A DNA stretch of 20,000 nucleotides, taken from assembly GCA_018398765.1 (NCBI GenBank), contig JAHBMJ010000388.1, positions 110,113-130,112 on the forward strand, read 5' to 3'. The position numbers and the translations under genes were made by a program. This stretch comes from Chromera velia. Taxonomy: Eukaryota. The notes beneath the pieces are model-generated. The model was not told the origin of the DNA and made no database searches. It saw only the letters and a program-made list of their open reading frames with translations. Every line of letters begins with the position of its first letter. The first letter of the stretch is position 1. Shown piece by piece: positions 1-20,000 of this stretch.

Positions 1-211
1 GCTCGTTCATTCTGTTTCTATCAGTCTGACTTTCATACAACAGAAATACGACTGTTGATTCATATGGCTACATCATATATAATGACGTGTGCGCTTACTT
101 CGATCACGGCCCCGGAACGACGTGCACACACACGGGCCGGTTCTATCACAATCGACACGCGAAGGCGGGGTGCTCACTGACACTCGTACCATGACGGGTA
201 TACACGTCACA
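1..211 (-). repeat. 3' LTR (partial; continues left of the window)
   Basis: Ungapped match to 2466-2676 with 29 mismatches in 211 bp; ends ...GTCACA. Confidence 0.92.
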
Positions 212-215
212 CATG

Positions 216-224
216 CCCCTCCCC
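216..224 (-). other. Polypurine tract (GGGGAGGGG) of the LTR element
   Basis: CCCCTCCCC on the plus strand, 4 nt from the LTR boundary at 211. Confidence 0.75.
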
Positions 225-1296
225 AGAATGATCGTCCCCAATCATTTCATTTCCTTCATGCAAGCATCGTTCATCCTCAGTCATGCTTTATTCATTCCTG
301 TCTATACTTGAATAAACTCACACAATGAAATAAGAAGCAAACGGGTGCACATCGATCCTCGTAAGACTGACATCGCGGAATTAAGAAATCAATTGCATCT
401 GCATGAGGATGAAAAATTTCGTTTCACATCCATACACACGCTTCGATCGATCGTCTGGCTCATGAATACATGACATAAAAGCTGTGGTCGCAACTGGACC
501 TGCATGAGCTTATTCGCTTTGTGCATGCGCGCATGACTTCTGGTGGTAACCATGCCAGTCTCTGTAGAGTCAGACTCGCCAACCTTATAGCCTCCCTTTC
601 TCCTCTTCCTGGTGGCAATGCATCTGTGCACGCTCATCGCATTGTCGACATGAACGACTGACTAGACGACTGATGCTGCTCAATCAATCATCCACACTTT
701 GAGTACCGCTGCACAAACATACTGTAAGCTGGTCTTTCTGTGTTTCTTTATAGTTGCTGGTCAGAAGAATTGTCAGCCTTCTCCTTTCTTCTGTCAGATG
801 CAATCTGACACACTCTTACTTCCTCCCCTTCCCTTTGCTTCACTCAGTACACAAACTCCAACGAGATCGACCTAGGGTGGGGTCTGCCTCCACTTTCCAC
901 AGCTTAATATGCAGGAGGGCACCACAGGTCGTCTCTTCTGTCTCCTCTTTCCTAGCTTCTTTCTTACTCTCCGTCTCCTCCTCCTTCTCTGCTTGTCTGG
1001 CAGCGAATGCGCTTTTGATTTCGACGATCTGCTGCTTACTGCTGCTTTATCAATTCCTCCTCCCTCTTTACTCTTCTAGGGCCTGGCATATAGCTTTTGA
1101 CTCCTGTCTGGATCGGTCTTTCTCTTTGACAGCGGTTAGGGGAATTGGCGAACTCATCTTCCTCTTCGCCGTCTCCATCCCGTCCTTCACTGCACTCACA
1201 CCCTTCGATGTGATACATGCCTAAGGGGCGGTGCACCTACTCATCATCAGACCTCTCTCCTGTAGCACGGACCATCTTCGGCTGCCCCTCTGGCCT

Positions 1297-2320
1297 TCAG
1301 ATGTTGCTGGTCTCGTTAGAGTCATGACCAAACGACAGGTGTTTTAGCCCTCTGCCATCTGCCCTCTCTCTCGGCTTCTGAATGATGATGATGTTGTTGT
1401 CAGGACAGTCTTTTGCACCATGACCTGCGTGCAATGTCCTGCAGAGGAAACACCCATGGAACTGAATCTTCCTGAGGATTTCTTTCTCTTTGTCAGTCAG
1501 GGGTGGCAGCTTTTGGATATTGTGTTCTCTGCTTTTGTTTATCTGCCCCAGTGCACCGATGTCCATGGGTGCTGGACCAGTGGGATGATCACTGGGATCA
1601 TGTGATATATAACCTCCACTACCGGTCACAGGGGGTGCTTCTGTTGAGGGAAGTGTTCTGGGGTGGGTTGCTGCTACAACAAACGAAACAGATGAGTGGG
1701 GAATGATCGAGAGTACTTCAAATGCTGCTCCTACTGCTACCTCGAGGTTTGTAGGTTTCTTTCTCTTCACCTCCTTCTGGACGTCTTCGGGAAAACCCTT
1801 CTCGTACTGATATACTTTGTCGCTCATGCTCATGTCAGGGATGAAGAGCATCTTAGAGATGAAGTTGCTCATGTACGTCTTGAGATCTGTGCCCAACACT
1901 TCCACACACTTTTAAATTATCCTGTCCAGTTCATTTTGGTGATTATCACGAGTTCGTCTGTCCTGAAAATATGTCAGCAGGACAGTCTAGAGCTCCAACT
2001 ACGTCACAGGCGTGTGCCCATTCTTTTCTGCGAGCTTTACAGCCTTAACCACATCGCCTTTAAGGTGGCTGTCAGCTGTACTGAGCAGCTACGCATCGGT
2101 CATACCATGGAAGTCGCGGTACTTCTCGCACACCCAGACCTAATCTTTGAATTCCTCAACTGTTCCAGCATAATCGTAGATTGGTTTGATCGCCTTCGCA
2201 AAAGCACTGGAAGAAGTGGAATGCAAGTGACCGAGGATCGCTCTCAACTCAGCAATCTCTGCAGTCTGAGCTTAGTACAAGGCTTTCAACTCTTTGAAGT
2301 CTCTGGTGAAACCTTCCCTC
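1297..2320 (-). pseudogene. gag: gag pseudogene (Retrotrans_gag-like capsid region plus CCHC zinc knuckle)
   Basis: One frame with six in-frame stops (2272, 2140, 2089, 1999, 1987, 1912) and no frameshift. It reads ...HLKGD...PVT*LEL...YMSNFISKMLFIPDMSMSDKVYQYEKGF...PTNLEVAVGAA...GPAPMDIG...LPPLTDKEKEILR...GCFLCRTLHAGHGAKDCP, containing the PM[DE]I motif and a CX2CX6HX4C knuckle typical of gypsy-type gag. The 5' end is approximate. Confidence 0.88.
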
Positions 2321-2347
2321 TTGACAAAGCAAATTTGGTCACAACGA

Positions 2348-2361
2348 GGCTCCTGCTATCA
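2348..2361 (-). promoter_or_regulatory. Primer-binding site, tRNA-iMet-like (TGATAGCAGGAGCC)
   Basis: Directly follows the CA end of the 5' LTR on the minus strand. It resembles TGGTA[GT]CAGAGC with a G->A change in TGG. Confidence 0.65.
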
Positions 2362-2676
2362 TGTGTAGCGTAGTGGCTAGCTATACGTTAGCAGACAAGG
2401 GCTCATCAAGACAGAGACAGTTAGTCAGATGGAAGGTCTGTCATGCTAGGCATTTGTTGTTATTCGCTCGTTCATTCTGTTTCTGTCAGTCTGACTCTCA
2501 TGCGACAGAAATATGACTGTTGATTCATGTGGCTAAATCATATGCAATGACGCACGCGTTTACTTCGATCGCAGCCCCGGAACGGCGTGCATACACATGG
2601 GCTGGTTTTATTACAATCGACACGCGAAGGCGGGGCGCTCACTGACGTTCGCACCACGACGGACATACACGTTACA
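2362..2676 (-). repeat. 5' LTR, 315 bp
   Basis: TGTGTAG...GTTACA on the plus strand; homologous to 1-211; adjacent to the PBS. Confidence 0.9.
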
Positions 2677-2710
2677 GTTCTATCATTCAATCAGTTGGTA
2701 CCTGCGCTGT

Positions 2711-3963: not shown

Positions 3964-5787
3964 CACGTGTGAACCCGCGGCTGCAAACAAGTTCGCGGGT
4001 AGGACCCCGGATTTTTACGGGCTGCCGCCGGGCTGGAACCCGTTTTGAACCCGCTTGAACCGGGTTCGAACCCGAATGCCGACTTTTTTGTAGGCCTCCA
4101 AAAGGCTCAAGAAGTCAAAACAAAGCGTTTCCCATCGATTCCCACAGGGTCCGACCGATGGCGGACACACAATGCCTGTCAGTCACGCATTCAGTCTGAC
4201 CACATCCTTCCGACTCACCAGTATGTGGAGACACCAGAGGGGTCCTGCTCCTCTAAGGCGCTTGGAATCTGCATTCAGCGAGCGCAACAGATGCACATCA
4301 CTGCACTGACCTTGACTATAGCGGATGACGCAGAGGGAAGAGCCTCTGGATGGACCTGGGGGCTCTTTGCTCGCCATCCGCACAGACGCTCCCACAAGAA
4401 CGCAACACACTCTTCATCCCCACCAAAAATTCCAACAAGCATCAATGCTGTCTGCAGCTGGCTGCAACGCAAAGAAACAAGGAAGATGCATTGTTTAGCA
4501 CGGCGGGGGAGAGAGCAAGGAGCCTACTGGGTGCCACAAAGGTTCTGCCGGAGGGGCAGACAGGTGTTGCTCACACCGTCTCGAGATGAGGTCACACTCG
4601 ACCCATCGAAAGGGTCTCCGCGCACAGCCACACCAAAAGGTGAATCCTGGACACACCACAGAGTCTGCCGGTGTTGTAGGAAGAGAACTGTACCAGTTTT
4701 CTGGAAGGATCTGCTTCACAGCCACTCCTGTACATCGAGAACGGTTCAGACTGGGTGTGACTGAATGTATCTCGTTGAGCCCATTTTGAGCTTTCGGAGC
4801 CGATTTTGAAAGCCGATTTTTCTCAGTGACGCACGCATCGGGCCGGGGACGCGCGGGGGCCATGTACGCGCGCGCGTCCCCGGCCCGATGCGTGCGTCAC
4901 TGAGAAAAATCGGCTTTCAAAATCGGCTCTGAGAAAGTTCAAAAACTGCTCATGCAACTAGATTCAGTCACACCCAGTCTGAGTTGTTCTCGATGTACAG
5001 GAGTGGCTGGGAAGCAGATCCTTCCAGCAAACTGGTACAGTTGTGTTTCTACAACACACTTAGACTCTGTTCTGTGTCTGGGTTTCACCTTTTGCGGTGG
5101 TTGTGTGATGAGACCCTTTCGAAGGGTCCAGCGTGAGGGTATCTAGAGACGGTGTGAGCAACACCTGTCTGCCCCTCCATCAACACCTTTGTGACACCGA
5201 GTAGGCTTCTTGCTCTCTCCCTAGCCGTGCTGGGCGACGTGTCTTCCTTGTTTCTCTGCATTGCAGCCGGCTGCAGCCAACTTTGATGCTTCTGGGATTT
5301 GTTTGTGGGGTTGAAGAATATTGAAGAGTGTGTTGCCTTCCTGTGGGACAGTTCGTGCTGATGGAGAGCAAACAGCCCCCAGGTCCACCCAGAAGCTGTC
5401 CCGACTGGGTCATTCGCTACAGTCAAGGTCAGTGCAGTGATATGCATCTGTTGTGCTCATGGGATGCAGGAGTCTAGCACCTCACAGGAGCAAGACCCCT
5501 CCGGTGGCTGCAGATACAGGTAAGTGGGAAGGATATGTGGTGTGCGGTGAGTGACTGACAGGCACTGTGTGTCCGGCATTGGTCAAACTCTGTTGGAAAC
5601 TCTTTGTCTGGACTGTTTGAAGCTTGTGGATGTGTGTTTGGTCGCTCAGAACTCACAAGTGCTCTTTTTGACAACCCGGCGAGAGCCCGGCGAAAACTGG
5701 GATTCCGGCCGGGCTCTAACCCGTTTTTGGCCGTGAAAATCCGGGGTCCTGCCCGCGAACTTGTTTGCAGCGGCGGGTTCACACATG
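3964..5787. mobile_element. Foldback element: two ~0.9-kb inverted arms with a perfect central palindrome
   Basis: 3964-4855 is an imperfect reverse complement of 4871-5787. The termini CACGTGTGAACCCGC / GCGGGTTCACACATG match (about 4 mismatches in 57 bp). The inner 59 bp (4797-4855 vs 4871-4929) are perfectly complementary around a 15-nt spacer. GT flanks both sides, a possible 2-bp TSD. Confidence 0.85.
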
Positions 5788-10730: not shown

Positions 10731-11033
10731 TTCCAACAGAGAGGATCAGCTCAGGGGGAATTTTCTGGAAATTTTCACACGAAAATTTCCAGAAAATCCT
10801 CCCCGACGGCGAAAGCTGAAAAATAAAAGTCGGAAACAGCGGAAGGAAAAGCATAAGAGGCATCGATGTGGGCTTTAAACATCGATCGGAGTTCATACAA
10901 GCCTATCTTTTGTTCTTCCCTGCATTTTTTGTGACTTTCATTTTTCAGCTTTCGCCGCCAGGGGGGATTTTCTGGAAACTTTTGTGCGAAAATTTCTAGA
11001 AAATCCCCCCTGAGCTGAGCCTCTCTATTGGAA
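10731..11033. mobile_element. MITE-like inverted repeat with nested palindromes
   Basis: The arms 10731-10831 and 10933-11033 are reverse complements. Each arm contains its own hairpin (ATTTTCTGGAAATTTTC-acac-GAAAATTTCCAGAAAAT). No TSD seen. Confidence 0.7.
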
Positions 11034-13420: not shown

Positions 13421-13423
<3 letters not shown>

Positions 13424-14490
13424 GGGTATGACACCTAAAAAAAAATAAAATATAATTTAATTACAAACCCTAGGGGCATGTGTCACTCTGATTAGCTATA
13501 ACTCTAAAAAGTAGTTTTTTAAGGTTTTTAGGATGAACTGACCTTATTTCTATGATAACACAACTTTTTAAATTAAATTTGATGACTTTTTATATATAAG
13601 AAAGTCAATTCGCCCTCTGAGGTTTGCAAACGCTCATGACGTCGGTTTGTAAACCTAATCCCCCAACCTGACCAAACCTGTCTAAACCTGGTTCTAAATG
13701 GCTTTTGCATGAACACAAAGAAGATGCAAAGCAAACATAACCTAGCATTTTACCAGGAAATATCAGATAAACCGATTATTTAACGAATGTAGGATAAAGT
13801 CAAGAACATAAAAGCTGTCTTCATTCTTTTACACTTCAACAGACTTATCCAAAGGTGCAATTTCCTTTTTAAACGCCCGGTCAACTTACTCCAATTCTCT
13901 ATCTTCAATTCATAAGCTGCCATTAATGTTTAGTGCAGTGGGTTTCCAAATTCCTCAATCATGTGTATAGTTTCCACGGAGAGGCGATCAAGCATTGCCA
14001 AACAAAGATCGTGCCGGGAAAGAAGAGAGGGGAAAAGGGGCAGGGGCAGGATAAAGAGAATGCAGCGGCTACTGTGAATGCTGATACGAGCAAGGCTGTA
14101 TCCCCTTGCTGAAATGCTCATACACAGAGTGTCACAGATGTGGTCCTGCCGGCAAAAATGTACAAAATGTACTTTTAACAGATTATTCACATATAGATTT
14201 TAGAAGTTTGACCAGGTTTGGACGGGTTTAAAGAGGTTTGAAAGCTTTAAGTCTGGTACGACCATGGTTTTCAAACCAATTCTAAACCTGATATAGCGAA
14301 TGGGTTTTATACTCATCTAAACCTACCCTAACCTACCTTAACCTTAGCCACTTGACCCTATTTTAGCGTTTTTTAAGCTTTTCTAGCAAATTAAGCTCCA
14401 AAAATCTCTTTTAAAACATCAAAAATTTAAGTTTTTATTGAGAAACCTAACTTCAAACCTAGGGTACCCTCACAAAGTGTCAGATCCTAG
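13421..14490. mobile_element. Putative TIR element inserted in a (TA)n tract
   Basis: TTAGGGTATGACACC vs CTAGGATCTGACACT (reverse complement of the right end), 11/15 identical. ATATAT flanks both sides. A subterminal CCTAGG occurs near both ends. Confidence 0.55.
13606..14303. mobile_element. Putative nested non-autonomous TIR element (CMC/EnSpm-like architecture)
   Basis: Ends are CAATTCGC... and ...GCGAATGG. Inverted clusters of AAACCTG / CAGGTTT subterminal motifs lie at 13620-13692 and 14205-14290. GT flanks both sides. Confidence 0.5.
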
Positions 14491-14590: not shown

Positions 14591-15156
14591 TCAGAAAAGA
14601 GTCTCTCTGAACTCCAGTCCGATGCTCTTCAGGTATTCAACTGTCATCTCTCTATCCAACTCATCATCGAATACCTCCGCTGACTCATCAGACGCAAGGT
14701 CGAGTCCCTGTAGGGCCTGGCCCAAAATCTATGTCTGTCTTTTATGGTGCCCGGCGTTTTCTGTGTCTGTCTTCTTCTCAGAGTAAACCTAGTCATAGAG
14801 AGAGAACCCCCGCTCCGAGACCTCCGCCGCGTTGGTGGCCTGAAAGACCTCCGTGGTAAGGGTGGCGTTTTTAGGGGCTGCTTCTACAAGGTCGTCCCGG
14901 CACCACCAGGAGAGGTTATCCACGGTGACCTTGTCGTCTAACGATATACAGTTAAGCTGAAGAGGAGGCGTCATAGCCTGTACTGCCTTGTACCACTCCG
15001 ACGTTATCTACAAGGACTGTTACTAGGCTTCACGGACATCATTGCCCTGGATTTCCTCCACCCCTCGACTTTAACATGCAAAACCTCGTCTAAGGACCCA
15101 AGGGGTGGAACAGAAACCTTGTATTCTTGTGGTTGAGAGGCTTCACTTAAAGCCAT
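14591..15156 (-). pseudogene. hAT C-terminal dimerisation-domain-like pseudogene
   Basis: Reads DNLSWWCRDDLVEAAPKNATLTTEVFQATNAAEVSERGFSLYD*VYSEKK. The WW..P-x18-SERxFS spacing matches the hAT C-terminal domain (Dimer_Tnp_hAT). There are five in-frame TAG/TAA stops and one frameshift near 15060. Confidence 0.6.
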
Positions 15157-15335
15157 CCTTTTCTCTAATTTATGTTTTAGAATACAAATTTTAACTATTT
15201 ACTATTTACTATCTTAAATTACTCTAAAAACATAATGAAAATTCACTAAAACACTGGTAAAAAGTTACTAAAACTTAGCTTATACGCATGCCGGGGCCCG
15301 CTGGGTTCCTTTTTGCCCCCCCCTGCCCATATGTA

Positions 15336-15352
15336 GGCGGCGCTTCGCCGCC
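15336..15352. other. GC hairpin GGCGGCG-CTT-CGCCGCC in the divergent intergenic region
   Basis: Perfect 7-bp stem with a 3-nt loop; function unknown. Confidence 0.6.
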
Positions 15353-16919
15353 AAAAACTCAACTGAACCAACCAAGTGGCCTCCAGAGCTGAAAGTTGGG
15401 AGATTTCTCACCCATCCCACTCTCATCAATTCTATGGAACAGAATTTGCAGACTCAACCTATAGCCTCTGCACCAGCAGTTTTCTGTTTAGCAACGTGTA
15501 TAAACTTTTATTTCTGAGGTGTTGTTCACTGTTGTTTGAGCTCAGTTCCAGACTGAGCCGTGTTACAAGCCGCGATGCCACCGCTCCCACCGCCTAAATC
15601 TTCGAAGGGGCGTAAAGGAGTAGGAGGGAGACCCACAAGAGCAGAAGCAGAAGGTCTGAAGGACAGACATGTACCTTTAGGAGAGTACCGTACCAACCTT
15701 GTCTCAACCATGTGCGGTTCGTCTCCTGCGTTGGAAAGGCCCTGCCACATAGCAGGGCTAGAGGCCATCAAGGCCTATAGGGAGAGAGAAATGCCGCCTT
15801 TCACTGCAGTGCGGACCGAACAGCAACAGCAGGAGCGAGATGCCCACCAGCAAAAGCAGCATAAAAGGAAGAGACGGATAAGTGAGCAGTCGGGGGTGTA
15901 TTGGAGGCAGGTTGTAAAGCGATTTGCATCTGATGCCCCGTCTTGGCCCCTTCATGACAAGTACAAAGAGGCCGCAGATGCGCTTTCCTCTGCAGCTCCC
16001 TTGCTTCCTACTCCCGAGGAGGACCCCAACGCTGCTAACGGCAGCTACGAGAACGGCTGCCGGAATCGGGCCAACACGATTGAGAAGCTCGACAGTTGTC
16101 GGGACGCCCCATCCTTCCATGGAGCGCCCATCCTTGACCCTCGAGACTATGAGAGGTCAGGGAAGGGTACAGAAAAATTGGCCGACAAGACGACCGCAGT
16201 GGTTGGGCTAGTGGATGACCTGTATGGGCTGAAAGGCCTACCCGCAGAAGAGCGTGCGGAAGGCCTCACATCGGCCTTTGCTTCGATCGCGTGCAAGGCC
16301 TCCTCCATCAAAGAAATGGAATTAGCCGAGAAGATTGCAGAGAACACACAGCAAGGGGGGTATTGTTTCGTAGACATAGAGAGGGAAAACAGAGCAGACA
16401 TGCCCCTTCACATCAAAAAGAGACTTGAGAGAGTGAGGGGGTTGAACAAGATGTGCAAGATTAAGAGCAAGCAGGTGAAAAGTCTGAATTTCTAGCTCCA
16501 CAAGAAATGGAAGAGAACTCCAGCCGATTGGCTCGACTATTGTCTGCGCAATGGCCTCACCCGGACAAAGTTGGGGAGGCTGAGAAGGTTTCTGGGGTTT
16601 GAGGTTGTCCCAGACCCCAAGGATGTGTTTGGGCCCCTGTGTGACTTGCAAAAGAAGCTTCGCGAGCAGGGGTTCTTCCGACCGTGCTCCAAGTTAGTTG
16701 GGGAGGTGGCAAAAAAATTGAAGGAGAAAGACAAGGAGGGAAGGGGAGAATTTTTTGCTGCATTCACAGTCAATCCTGCAGACTACATACGGCTTCTGAT
16801 GGAAGATGAGTGGGGGGGGGAATACTTCTCTACCAACGCGGACCTCTCAGAAGAAGGAGTCATCGGCCAAGAGTGGGTCGTCTCTATTGATGGCTCCTCT
16901 GGGTCTGGCCTGGCTGACG

Positions 16920-16924
16920 GTTGG

Positions 16925-16955
<31 letters not shown>

Positions 16956-17059
16956 GTATGTGTGTGTGTATGTGTGCATATGTGTCTGTGTGTGTGCGTC
17001 TGTGTGTGTGTATGCATGTGTATGTGTGTGTGTGTATGTGTTTGTGTTTCTGTTTCCAG
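16920..17059 (+). other. Intron 1 of the RAG1-like gene, (CT)n+(GT)n filled
   Basis: GTTGGT...TTCCAG; phase 1; restores the frame. Confidence 0.8.
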
Positions 17060-17107
17060 TTTGTGTTACCCTCGCAACCGCTCGCAACTTGACCCCTGCA
17101 CAAAATT

Positions 17108-17152
<45 letters not shown>

Positions 17153-17165
17153 TGTGTATGTGCAG
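17108..17165 (+). other. Intron 2, (GT)n filled
   Basis: GTGTAT...TGCAG; phase 1; joins into the RPLC-containing frame. The nearby GTATGT at 17110 would break the frame. Confidence 0.7.
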
Positions 17166-17386
17166 GGGGCGGGTGTGTTTCACTCATCATGCGGCCCCTC
17201 TGTGTCCCAAACGAGGCACTGTACAGAGTTGATCTCTCTTGCTGCCTCGGCATTACTAATTGGCAGGAAAACGTCAACACCATCACCTCCCTCTTCGAGG
17301 CCCCAGAGATCAAGACTGGGGGGACCCTTCTCTCGACGACTGGGATCGTTCTTCAAAAAGGCCCACACGCAGGAAAAACTGTCAAA

Positions 17387-17487
17387 GTTGGTCTCCCCGC
17401 CCCTCCCTTCCGCTCCCTTCCCCTCTTTCTCTCTCTCATTCTATCCCATAATAATTCTCCTGTTTCTTTTTCTCTCTCTGCATGCAG
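17387..17487 (+). other. Intron 3, pyrimidine-rich
   Basis: GTTGGT...TGCAG; phase 0; creates KTVK|IEFHGTAD. Confidence 0.85.
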
Positions 17488-17733
17488 ATAGAATTCCACG
17501 GGACCGCAGACCAGAGCGCTGAACTCAAAGGAAAGGGACATGCGGGGGCGAGTTGCGCTGCATCCTGCGGCAACTGTGTTCAGAATGACAAAGAGATGCA
17601 GACCCTCAAGGGGCTCGAGAAGTGGGTTTCGAAGGATGCCAACTTCAACCCCCGAAGACCAACCAGGTCCTACTTGGACCCTCTACCCCCTGACTCAGCC
17701 CCGACAAGGACACGTTAAAGCCACGATGCAAAA

Positions 17734-17736
17734 GTG

Positions 17737-17781
<45 letters not shown>

Positions 17782-17855
17782 ATATATGTATGTGTGTGTG
17801 TGTATGTGTATATATGTATGTGTGTGTGTGTGTGTATGTGTGTGTGTGTGGTCAG
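17734..17855 (+). other. Intron 4, (CT)n+(GT)n filled
   Basis: GTGGGT...GTCAG; phase 0; joins to the long terminal ORF. Confidence 0.8.
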
Positions 17856-19213
17856 TTCAATGCAGGCTGCGCATGTTCCAGAAAGCACTCGACAGATTGC
17901 TACCGATGGGTCTGCAAAGGCAGCGTGGGGCCATGGCGGTGGCCCTCATGGATCAAAGAGGTCTGGCCCGATGTCCTCTACCTTGCGATGCGTGCGGCAG
18001 AATTCATCTGCATTCGCCGTTTTTGCACGACCATGTGGAGAAGGGCCTGCATGTGTCAGGAATACAGGCAAGGGGGGGGGTCCTCTGCGAGTGAGGCTGA
18101 GCTGAATGCAGAAGAGGGGAACGAAATTCCCCCCCCCTTTGAGGAAGAGGAGGAAGCGAAAAGGAAAGGGGGGGAGGAGACAAAGAAAGCCAAGATCCAG
18201 CCCCTTTGCCGTCATGAGTGCAACTGCCCTCTCGAGCCAAACGAAGAGGGCAAGCAGTGCGGACGGAAAGTCCTGCATGAGATGAACTCTCTTTGGAGCG
18301 ACAGCATCCTGATCAACACAGACACACTGATTCTGGTAGCCAATCCAGAGCTCTCGAAGAAGCCAACTGCCCCAAAGTTCGTCTGGCCAAAGAAGAGTCT
18401 GCAGGGGCGGACTGTTGTGAAGCTGTCCCTTCAGCACAAAGACATGTTCCGCATATGCCACATGATGGACACAAAAGAGAGGATTATGCAGACATCGTTG
18501 TTTCGATGCCTGCATGTTCTTCGTATGACAACAGATTTGGATGTGAAAGGGGCAGGAAACTACGCAGCTGCGTTGTGGCAGTTGAAAGATCTTTTTCTGC
18601 AGATTCATAAGCATACGGGGGTAAAGTGGAATGGGACCCTCCACAGGCTTGAGCATGCCTGGTATTGGCTGAGAACGAGGGGGTCTTATGGGAGGGTCTT
18701 CAATATGCAGGCTCATGAAGCCTTCAACCGGGTCATCAAGGAGGCTTTTTCATCAAAAGGCGCCTCAAGTCATGGTTCGTTTGGCACAAAGGCCCCAACG
18801 GGAAAGTGGGAGAGAAGAGACCTGCACATGGGCCGTCGGCTAGTGACTGGCCATCTCTTACAGACCCTGTCGGCTTCCAGTACCGCCAACAGAAGGACAG
18901 AGGCACGGACCGCTTCCCGCCTTGAACTAATGCTTGCACCAAGTGAGAAGGAAGACCTCTCGTCAGAGAGTGAGGTTGATTCCGATGCCGATTTAGACAT
19001 ATCTGTTGAGCTTGATTTCGTTGAAGACGTTCAGGACTAAGATGAAAACATGTAAAAAAAAATTAATAGCATATAAATTTTAAGCATTAAATTTTAAGTC
19101 ATTTAAACTCTAATTTAAATTAAGTAGATTAAGTATCTAGTTAACTATAAACCATAATTCAAAATAGAATTCAGGTGACGTATATTTGCGTAGCATAACA
19201 TAGCATTGATATC

Positions 19214-19333
19214 AACCGTCAACTATATTTTTAACTAGAATTTATAAATCAATAAATAAAGTATACATAAAGCATATAAACTATAATTGAAATGAAATAC
19301 ATTAACCGTCAACTATATTTCAAACTAGAATTT
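19214..19333. repeat. 30-bp direct repeat in the AT-rich spacer between the convergent genes
   Basis: AACCGTCAACTATATTT(TT/CA)AACTAGAATTT at 19214 and 19304 (28/30 identical). Confidence 0.85.
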
Positions 19334-19464
19334 CTCAGTTTAAATTTTATACTTCGATTAAAAAGAATTTAAATTATAAGTATACTTTAAGCATAAATTA
19401 AAATTTAAAATAGAATTTAAATGAACGGTTTTTTGTTTAAAATCAAACCTCAAACCTCAATGAC

Positions 19465-20000
19465 TCAAACATCAAAATCAAAGTAGACTTTATCCTGTCC
19501 GTCATCGGCCGAATCCTCTGCGGGCGCCGAAGGTTGAAAAGGGAGTGGCGGCCTACTCCAAGCCACCTGAAGGACACCTGCTCCTGCTGCAGCCGCTGCT
19601 GCAGGTACTGGTGCAGCAGAAGAAGAAGAAGAGGCCACAAACGTCACCCATGAAGGGACGCGGACCCCACCCTGCTGCTGCTGAACAACATGTAAATGGA
19701 AGGACGAAGGAGCCGTCTTGCTACCCCCCCCTCCACTCCAAACCATCTGAAGACGGCATCGACCTGCAACCCAGGCAGCACACCCTGGATCGCCTTTCCC
19801 CTCAGACGGACAACGCAGGGATGCTCCATGGCTGTCCTAAATTGGATGGCCTCCATCTTGAGGAGGCGCTCCACTGCCTTTCGCCTCTTCGCATCATTTC
19901 GGGGCTGCCTTTTCTTCAGCTTTCTCTTCTTCCCTCCTCCTCCCTCCGCTCCTTCTTCCTCCGAGGTCACCTCCTCCTCGGGGTTGTAGTTCGTCGTCAG
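19465..20000 (-). CDS. 3' end of an unknown gene convergent with the RAG1-like gene (5' part outside the window; probable frameshift in the G-run at ~19724-19731)
   Basis: Sharp rise in GC. The frame is open from the window edge (LTTNYNPEEEVTSEEE...KKRKLKKR...VFRWFGVEGG). A second frame continues GSKTAPSSFHLHVV...DDGQDKVYFDFDV* up to the AT-rich boundary. Confidence 0.55.

What the first reader, a model, noticed from the sequence alone, without database searches (positions are those of the whole stretch)
15575..19040. Hidden five-exon RAG1-like transposase in a probable protist genome
Seen in the sequence: the ORF fragments join through four frame-preserving GT-AG introns and two read-through stops into ~1014 aa. 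From established knowledge (mouse RAG1 numbering, recalled): the catalytic residues are D600/D708/E962 and the Zn ligands are C727/C730/H937/H942. Here D439-D546 is 107 aa (RAG1 108), CxxC sits at D2+19/+22 (identical), and H883-E908 is 25 aa (identical). The FxGT..D, PLC, AAEF and GSxG motifs look RAG1-like, while DGSSG looks Transib-like. Inference: a divergent member of the RAG1/Transib lineage. Such proteins are best known from animals, with few reports from unicellular eukaryotes, so this may inform the origin of the V(D)J recombinase.
Basis: partly seen in the sequence, partly recalled or inferred. Interest (0 to 1): 0.92.

Follow-up and report, generated by a model that had tools for sequence, protein, structure and literature searches.

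The report
Decayed RAG1-leaning transposase in Chromera
This is a broken copy of a multi-copy, intron-containing gene of the alga Chromera velia whose product is likely a cut-and-paste DNA transposase of the group that gave rise to the antibody-gene enzyme RAG1, and the one assembled transcript found across its middle skips the exon with a predicted catalytic residue.

Summary
The gene is real but the model needs correction. RNA-type contigs and paralog gene models support four exons, not five: 17060-17107 is spliced out. The first stop reads Trp, not Gln, in 5 of 5 paralogs. The closest relatives are all Chromera velia 'uncharacterized' proteins; HMMER over 1.84 billion representatives, Pfam and PDB sequences found no RAG1 or Transib hit. 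The ESM Atlas ranks RAG1 first by features (0.95, tied with unnamed clusters) and gives TM 0.63, against 0.48-0.62 for CACTA clusters. The motifs quoted are shared by the whole CMCT clade (PMC12730594). The tail-to-tail partner gene is conserved beside other copies but is not RAG2-like. There is no CTT1 motif, an RSS-like site proved internal, and the ends are unknown. The only RNA-type contig across the middle skips the exon with the second Asp and CxxC. Verdict: a divergent CMCT transposase leaning to RAG1/Transib, not a demonstrated RAG1L; this copy is dead.

The parts
15575..16919 (+). Exon 1 of the transposase-like gene: long N-terminal region, premature TAG at 16493, first catalytic Asp candidate (D439, codon at 16889) in IDGSSG
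   Evidence: RNA-type contigs cover 15440-16917; paralogs read Trp at the stop, 5 of 5
16920..17165 (+).
   Evidence: 10 letters between 16917 and 17174 in the X5 and X8 contigs; models P0002 and P0004 use it
17166..17386 (+). Exon 2 (RNase H-like strands and helix, inferred)
   Evidence: covered by the X5/X8 contigs 17174-17385; present in P0002, P0004
17387..17487 (+). Intron 2 (101 nt); donor used in RNA, acceptor seen only in gene models
   Evidence: acceptor used in P0002, P0004, P0005
17488..17733 (+). Exon 3: second catalytic Asp candidate (17509), CxxC (17566, 17575), premature TAA at 17716; skipped in frame in the only bridging RNA-type contigs
   Evidence: a DNA contig of X1 covers 17174-17616 unspliced
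17734..17855 (+). Intron 3 (122 nt); acceptor used in RNA, donor inferred from sequence
   Evidence: other stop-free donor/acceptor pairs exist
17856..19040 (+). Exon 4: D-x-x-H position (Tyr here at 17979, His in P0003), AAEF, a Cys/His-rich and acidic insertion (about 18045-18270), H-x3-H (18642, 18654), catalytic Glu candidate (18717), acidic tail, stop 19038-19040
   Evidence: RNA-type contigs cover 17858-19063
19041..19464 (.). AT-rich spacer with degenerate direct repeats between the two convergent genes
   Evidence: GC 0.23; self-matches; DNA contig depth like that of the gene
19465..20000 (-). 3' part of a convergent partner gene of unknown function (Chromera family P0010-P0019, up to 390 aa); frameshifted in this copy; runs off the window
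   Evidence: other copies hold about 40 more letters at 19649-19651; no convincing Pfam or PDB hit, no kelch pattern

Best explanation
The locus is a decayed copy of a multi-copy, four-exon Chromera gene that likely encodes a cut-and-paste DDE transposase of the CMCT clade (CACTA-Mirage-Chapaev-Transib-RAG1), probably nearest the RAG1/Transib branch but forming its own lineage. Shown: exon structure in part, multiple copies, transcription of a related copy (RNA status of the runs is the tool's guess), two stops and a His-to-Tyr change in this copy. Inferred from family knowledge: in an intact copy D439, D530 and E892 (998-aa numbering) would bind two metal ions in an RNase H fold, C549/C552 with H867/H871 would bind zinc, and a dimer would excise the element at its ends and insert it elsewhere. 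The convergent partner gene likely travels in the same element. The 916-aa product that skips exon 3 lacks D2 and CxxC and would be catalytically dead; the skip is most simply decay or loss of stop-carrying transcripts, less likely regulation.
For: ESM Atlas, paralog P0002 residues 200-678: first hit RAG1 at 0.95 with 179 of 256 features shared, 9 of the 10 best family hits agree, TM 0.63 over 395 residues to a RAG1 cluster (calibration not measured for parts of proteins). For the C-terminal half the only two family-labelled rows shown are RAG1-related, at 0.91 and 0.90. By eye against three sequences printed in the supplement of PMC9435367: D2 to CxxC +19/+22 as in FcoRAG1L and AanRAG1L (+16/+19 in AnoTransib); D-x-x-H in P0003 as in both RAG1Ls; D2 to that His 116 aa against 90, 95 and 50; E-A-x-N-[KR] in all four; DGSSG as in AnoTransib. 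Multi-copy: 7 annotated loci at about 91-94% protein identity including this one, plus a family at 35%; differences between copies are mostly transitions. Partner-family genes carry adjacent gene numbers at 2 of the 6 other loci (Cvel_15946/15947, Cvel_14657/14658).
Against: No RAG1 or Transib hit by sequence: Pfam at E up to 10, PDB sequences, 4 hits, all Chromera, among 1.84 billion representatives. In one search unnamed clusters tie with RAG1 (0.95) and CACTA Transposase_21 clusters reach TM 0.48-0.62 on a model of pLDDT 0.49. In one search, 28 of 30 hits are unnamed and RAG1 is rank 25 with 158 features, under the 170 typical of family members. The His pair is H-x3-H, against H-x4-H in all three printed sequences, and Gln stands three residues before the Glu where all three have Glu. 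No element end or target duplication was found. No intact copy was seen: 5 of 5 gene models that span the region avoid the codon at 17716. The partner's orientation at the other loci was not seen.
Confidence: 0.62

Rival explanations
1. It is a CMCT transposase of another lineage (Chapaev-, ESTA- or EnSpm-like, or a lineage of its own) that only looks RAG1-like because RAG1 is the best-sampled named member of the clade. It would work the same way.
For: The quoted motifs are CMCT-wide and ESTA gives RAG1 as its HHpred hit (PMC12730594). Unnamed clusters tie with or outrank RAG1; CACTA clusters reach TM 0.62. H-x3-H and Gln at E-3 differ from the three printed RAG1L/Transib sequences; their likeness to CACTA and Chapaev motifs is recalled, not tested.
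Against: RAG1 is rank 1 by features and has the highest TM by query; no CACTA cluster appears among the feature rows shown. DGSSG, +19/+22, D-x-x-H and E-A-x-N-[KR] match the printed RAG1L/Transib sequences.
Confidence: 0.27
2. It is a true RAG1L of a ProtoRAG-type transposon, with the convergent gene as a much-changed RAG2L.
For: Tail-to-tail layout as in ProtoRAG (sequence; PMC9435367); RAG1L-type spacing and D-x-x-H; RAG1 first.
Against: The partner family has no kelch pattern in 10 of 10 proteins and no RAG2 or kelch hit; no CTT1 motif in 3 of 3 C-termini; the RSS-like site at 14133 is internal to a repeat and expected in 21% of shuffled windows.
Confidence: 0.05
3. It is a domesticated or amplified host gene derived from a transposase, whose working product is the D2-less 916-aa form.
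For: The only bridging RNA-type contigs skip exon 3; no gene model reads through 17716; no ends found.
Against: Copies are decayed in different places and differ mostly by transitions; exon 3 with its Asp and CxxC is kept in 3 of 3 paralog models that include it; the 12 synonymous of 24 scored changes are not clearly above the 33% expected without selection (p = 0.063).
Confidence: 0.06

Closest known systems
RAG1 / RAG1L core (AanRAG1L of Aureococcus, FcoRAG1L of Fungia; PMC9435367)
   Same: Order D, D, CxxC (+19/+22), D-x-x-H, His pair, E-A-x-N-[KR]; long stretch between CxxC and the third His; best named ESM Atlas match.
   Different: No detectable sequence similarity by HMMER; H-x3-H; D2 to E 362 aa against 256 and 258, from an insertion with extra Cys/His residues conserved in both Chromera families; no CTT1; no RAG2-like partner; three introns.
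Transib transposases (AnoTransib printed in PMC9435367 supplement; Nozomi, bioRxiv 2026.08.26.747230)
   Same: DGSSG at D1, E-A-x-N-[KR], acidic tail without CTT1; bona fide Transibs can also lack InterPro hits.
   Different: CxxC at +19/+22 not +16/+19; D2 to third His 116 not 50; D2 to E 362 not 210 (my counts on the printed sequence); CAC ends and 5-bp duplication not shown.
CMCT clade as a whole, including ESTA, Chapaev, EnSpm/CACTA, Plavaka (PMC12730594)
   Same: DDE with C(2)C, H(3-4)H and a third His; CACTA clusters at TM 0.48-0.62.
   Different: No Pfam Transposase_21 hit; no member of these lineages could be aligned here; termini unknown.

Membership tests
CMCT clade of DDE transposases | [quoted passage not shown] | tested here: met
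   D439, D530, C549/C552, H867/H871, E892; third His in P0003, Tyr in this copy; definition from PMC12730594 passages. Roles assigned by motif only.
CMCT clade of DDE transposases | RNase H-like fold with a zinc-binding insertion | tested here: inconclusive
   Atlas model of P0002 (pLDDT 0.49): TM 0.63 to RAG1, 0.48-0.62 to CACTA clusters. My AlphaFold2 models had pLDDT 35.8 and 41.2 and gave no specific match.
CMCT clade of DDE transposases | Dispersed multi-copy element with CA..TG ends and 2-5 bp target duplication | tested here: inconclusive
   Multi-copy met. Ends not found: right end is outside the window, no whole genome held, candidate left end rejected.
Transib superfamily | Profile or tree placement with Transib transposases | not testable with these tools
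   No Transib sequence could be obtained (scans 52, 60 empty; searches found only Chromera proteins).
Transib superfamily | TIRs starting CAC and 5-bp target duplication | not testable with these tools
   Ends lie outside what could be resolved.
RAG1L / ProtoRAG (RAGL transposon) | RAG1-core similarity detectable by sequence (tblastn E 0.001 in PMC9435367 methods) | tested here: not met
   No RAG1 hit in Pfam, PDB sequences or 1.84 billion representatives. The test ran from this protein outward, on pieces and partial gene models, not on the spliced whole.
RAG1L / ProtoRAG (RAGL transposon) | Linked RAG2L gene with six kelch repeats | tested here: not met
   Convergent partner family: no kelch pattern in 10 of 10 proteins, no kelch or RAG2 hit. 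DNA beyond 20000 was not seen, and no fold of the partner was run.
RAG1L / ProtoRAG (RAGL transposon) | CTT1 zinc motif at the C-terminus | tested here: not met
   Absent in P0001, P0007, P0008; present in the printed AanRAG1L and FcoRAG1L.
RAG1L / ProtoRAG (RAGL transposon) | RSS-like bipartite asymmetric TIRs | tested here: inconclusive
   The one RSS-like site (14133) is internal to a high-copy repeat and near chance; true ends unknown.
RAG1L / ProtoRAG (RAGL transposon) | Long ZnB stretch between CxxC and the third His (lost in subgroup II Transib) | tested here: inconclusive
   Length fits (116 aa against 90 and 95 in RAG1Ls, 50 in AnoTransib); equating it with the alpha11-alpha12 region of PMC9435367 is my inference, and homology was not shown.

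The most novel reading that the evidence does not exclude
A deep-branching RAG1/Transib stem lineage in a chromerid alga: a two-gene transposon whose RAG1-like enzyme carries its own extra zinc module, travels with a non-RAG2 tail-to-tail partner, and is switched off by default by skipping the one exon that holds the second catalytic Asp and the CxxC, so that only a rare splice form makes active transposase.
Probability: 0.12. Interest if true: 0.82.

Novelty: new variant of a known kind. Interest (0 to 1): 0.5.

Why it matters
It adds a chromerid (alveolate) lineage, missed by sequence searches and mis-modelled in the annotation, to the transposase group from which RAG1 arose. If a tree puts it at the base of RAG1L/Transib, it bears on whether that group is as old as the eukaryotic radiation and on what partners such enzymes had besides RAG2. 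The exon skip is a cheap, testable lead for splicing control of a CMCT transposase. Its weight is limited: a complete algal RAGL is already published, this copy is dead, and its place within CMCT is unsettled.

Tried and rejected
Whole genome: none held. Longer homologs of exon 4: none among 2570 candidates. Metagenome loci of the family: none. RAG1 or Transib seed sequences for a profile comparison and tree: four motif scans gave 0, 1 (a chance match in an unrelated frame), 0 and 0 loci, so no tree or HH comparison was made. AlphaFold2: pLDDT 35.8 (P0002 alone) and 41.2 (C-terminal 230 aa, 5 rows); Foldseek found nothing at E 0.001 and VIA-align gave only unrelated helical bundles at Z up to 7.3, with no RAG1 or Transib among the 50 rows shown; inconclusive. 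RSS-like site at 14133 as left end: rejected; contigs of X1 and X2 run through it with no depth step or pile of loose ends. Exon 17060-17107: rejected as unsupported. Gln at stop 307: rejected. Partner as RAG2L: not supported. A shuffle test of the motif chain gave 0 of 20000, but the pattern was fitted to this protein, so I give it little weight. Synonymous excess: 12 of 24 scored changes, p = 0.063; these are the exon-1 coding rows with an X8 difference among the 40 rows shown of 334. The run search listed no holder on record as RNA; X5, X8 and X9 are RNA by the tool's guess. Exon 3 has almost no cover in those runs, which alone shows nothing. hAT likeness of 14594-15007: no Pfam hit. The HzTransib structure paper was not held. 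A literature search on exon skipping in transposases gave nothing relevant in its listing.
Full report
Observation. A model without the 48-nt piece 17060-17107 is also in frame and gives 998 codons. The introns are CT/GT-repeat tracts with 1-2 AG dinucleotides each.

Host and copies. All protein relatives are Chromera velia 'uncharacterized' proteins: 5 hits at 91-94% identity, and 4 hits among 1.84 billion representatives, one of them a second family at 35% identity to exon 4. The profile had 678 positions and so lacked the last Glu region. The locus itself is annotated as P0008, 807 aa, a model that omits D2 and CxxC. Counting gene names, 7 loci of the main family are annotated, this one included. 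DNA contigs of run X1 lie over the gene at summed depth of about 150-410 outside two masked bins, while many single contigs nearby have depth 25-60; this fits several copies but is no copy number. Differences are mostly transitions.

This copy is dead. Stop 307 reads Trp in 5 of 5 paralogs that span it; the Tyr in DVLY reads His in the 1 paralog that covers it; the Tyr in CQEY reads Cys in 3 of 4 other proteins. The partner gene lacks about 40 letters that other copies hold. The stop at 17716 is unresolved: 5 of 5 gene models that span the region avoid it, and the difference table showed only 40 of 334 rows, without this site.

Splicing. Runs X5 and X8 (one study; RNA by the tool's guess) each give a 1344-nt contig of a copy about 96% alike, laid as 16716-16917, 17174-17385 and 17858-18774, with 10 and 3 letters between the pieces. 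Three letters equal 17386 plus 17856-17857, so 17488-17733 is skipped in frame. The tool masked the repeat tracts and did not list these joints itself; the reading is my arithmetic on its piece table, and the letters between were not shown. No bridging contig was listed for X9. The skipped form is 916 aa and lacks D2, CxxC and the stop at 17716. A DNA contig holds 17174-17616 unspliced. Three readings remain: a damaged splice site in the transcribed copy, loss of stop-carrying transcripts by decay, or a regulated switch. Stop-free inclusion forms are possible on paper, for example 17714/17865. Splice control of the P element is the recalled precedent and comes from no call.

What the protein is. 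Sequence searches are silent: Pfam at E up to 10 and PDB sequences gave no RAG1, Transib or CACTA hit. This is weak evidence against, because the spliced whole could not be submitted and a true Transib also lacks InterPro hits (bioRxiv 2026.08.26.747230, passages). The ESM Atlas is the main positive. For P0002 residues 200-678 the first hit is RAG1 (0.95; 179 of 256 features; 9 of the 10 best family hits agree), tied with unnamed animal clusters; by structure RAG1 reaches TM 0.63 over 395 residues and CACTA clusters 0.48-0.62, on a model of pLDDT 0.49. For the C-terminal half, 28 of 30 hits are unnamed, RAG1 is rank 25 at 0.91, and the structure search is uninformative. My own folds failed and their searches were non-specific.

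Motifs against printed sequences. I compared by eye with AanRAG1L, FcoRAG1L and AnoTransib as printed in the supplement of PMC9435367 (counts are mine). RAG1L-like: CxxC at D2+19/+22, D-x-x-H, a long D2-to-His stretch (116 aa; 90 and 95; 50 in the Transib). Transib-like: DGSSG, acidic tail, no CTT1. Shared by all: E-A-x-N-[KR]. Unlike all three: H-x3-H, Gln at E-3, and D2 to E of 362 aa (256, 258, 210), caused by an insertion whose Cys/His residues are conserved in both Chromera families and may form an extra zinc site (inference). The mouse RAG1 numbers in the finding are recalled and were not checked. No Chapaev, ESTA or EnSpm sequence was compared; their likeness to H-x3-H and Gln at E-3 is recalled. 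PMC12730594 (passages) states that these motifs are common to the whole CMCT clade and that ESTA hits RAG1 by HHpred yet is a distinct lineage. A RAG1 top hit therefore does not settle membership.

The element. A convergent gene ends at 19465 and is well covered by RNA-type contigs in X5, X8 and X9. It belongs to a Chromera family of 10 proteins. At 2 of the 6 other transposase loci a member has the adjacent gene number; orientation there was not seen, and the other 4 show no such neighbour among the 6 named members. The family shows no kelch pattern (0 of 10) and no convincing Pfam hit (4 of 10 scanned) or PDB hit. An RSS-like string at 14133 is not an end: contigs of two DNA runs cross it with continuous high depth from 13450 to 14350, and such a string occurs in 21% of shuffled windows. 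The true ends are unknown.

How it most likely works. Shown: a transcribed, multi-copy, decaying gene with ordered D, D, CxxC, His, His pair and E. Inferred: an intact copy encoded a zinc-binding RNase H-fold transposase that cut its element out and pasted it elsewhere, carrying the partner gene. The present main transcript would give an inactive protein.

Literature. PMC9435367 (whole main text; supplement parts 1, 2, 22, 23 of 24 and a term search) reports a complete RAGL transposon in Aureococcus and RAG1L fragments in other unicellular eukaryotes. 'Chromera' is not in its text-held supplement, but 5 of 21 pages are pictures and the species figure could not be read, so a listing there cannot be excluded. 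Searches for Chromera with Transib or RAG1 found 0 papers; one search found none that name Chromera, and one search listed 3 papers not about this element (listings only). The Chromera genome paper PMC4501334 (passages; supplement file 10; term search of 12 of 16 files) gives 7.6 Mb of class II elements without naming Transib or CACTA. bioRxiv 2021.09.26.461848 (passages) calls alveolates minor hosts of DDE elements. PMC10629977 was seen as a listing only. Earlier notes of this scan hold 31 RAG1/Transib-like findings in at least 11 genomes, none naming Chromera; these are unchecked leads, but they suggest that divergent protist members are not rare.

Verdict. Real, mis-annotated and not in print as far as these searches reach. 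It works like a RAG1/Transib-type transposase (CMCT membership about 0.9, my estimate); nearest to RAG1/Transib about 0.6; a true RAGL about 0.05. New variant of a known kind; interest 0.5.

Noticed in passing
window 13421-14490: Probable 1.07-kb MITE or foldback element between TA runs, with degenerate inverted arms of about 340 nt (score 139.5 against 89.9 +/- 11.9 in 300 shuffles; a local alignment was not above shuffles) and very high contig depth.
   Followed up: partly
window 14133-14160: RSS-like string (heptamer-like, 12-nt spacer, nonamer-like); internal to the repeat above and near chance.
   Followed up: yes
window 14594-15150, minus strand: Decayed high-copy ORF with stops and a frameshift; by eye like a hAT dimerisation region (recalled motif), no Pfam hit.
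   Followed up: partly
window 15285-15489: Upstream stretch shared with other, strongly covered contigs that diverge after 15489, in DNA and RNA-type runs: a promoter-region module used by another gene or element.
   Followed up: no
window 18345-18640: A contig of run X9 skips 294 nt at non-splice ends, likely an internally deleted copy.
   Followed up: no
window 3964-5787: 1.8-kb foldback with arms 81-98% complementary around a centre near 4863.
   Followed up: no
window 1-2700: LTR retrotransposon remnant: gag-like ORF 1297-1911 minus (Pfam Ty3_capsid E 0.013, below cut-off) between similar stretches at about 1-210 and 2464-2680 seen by eye.
   Followed up: no
window 10731-11033: Inverted repeat with 128-nt arms, 84% complementary.
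   Followed up: no
P0007 (Cvel_15884): Second, divergent Chromera family (35% identity) with Tyr, Ser and Lys at the two His and the Glu positions; likely another decayed lineage.
   Followed up: partly
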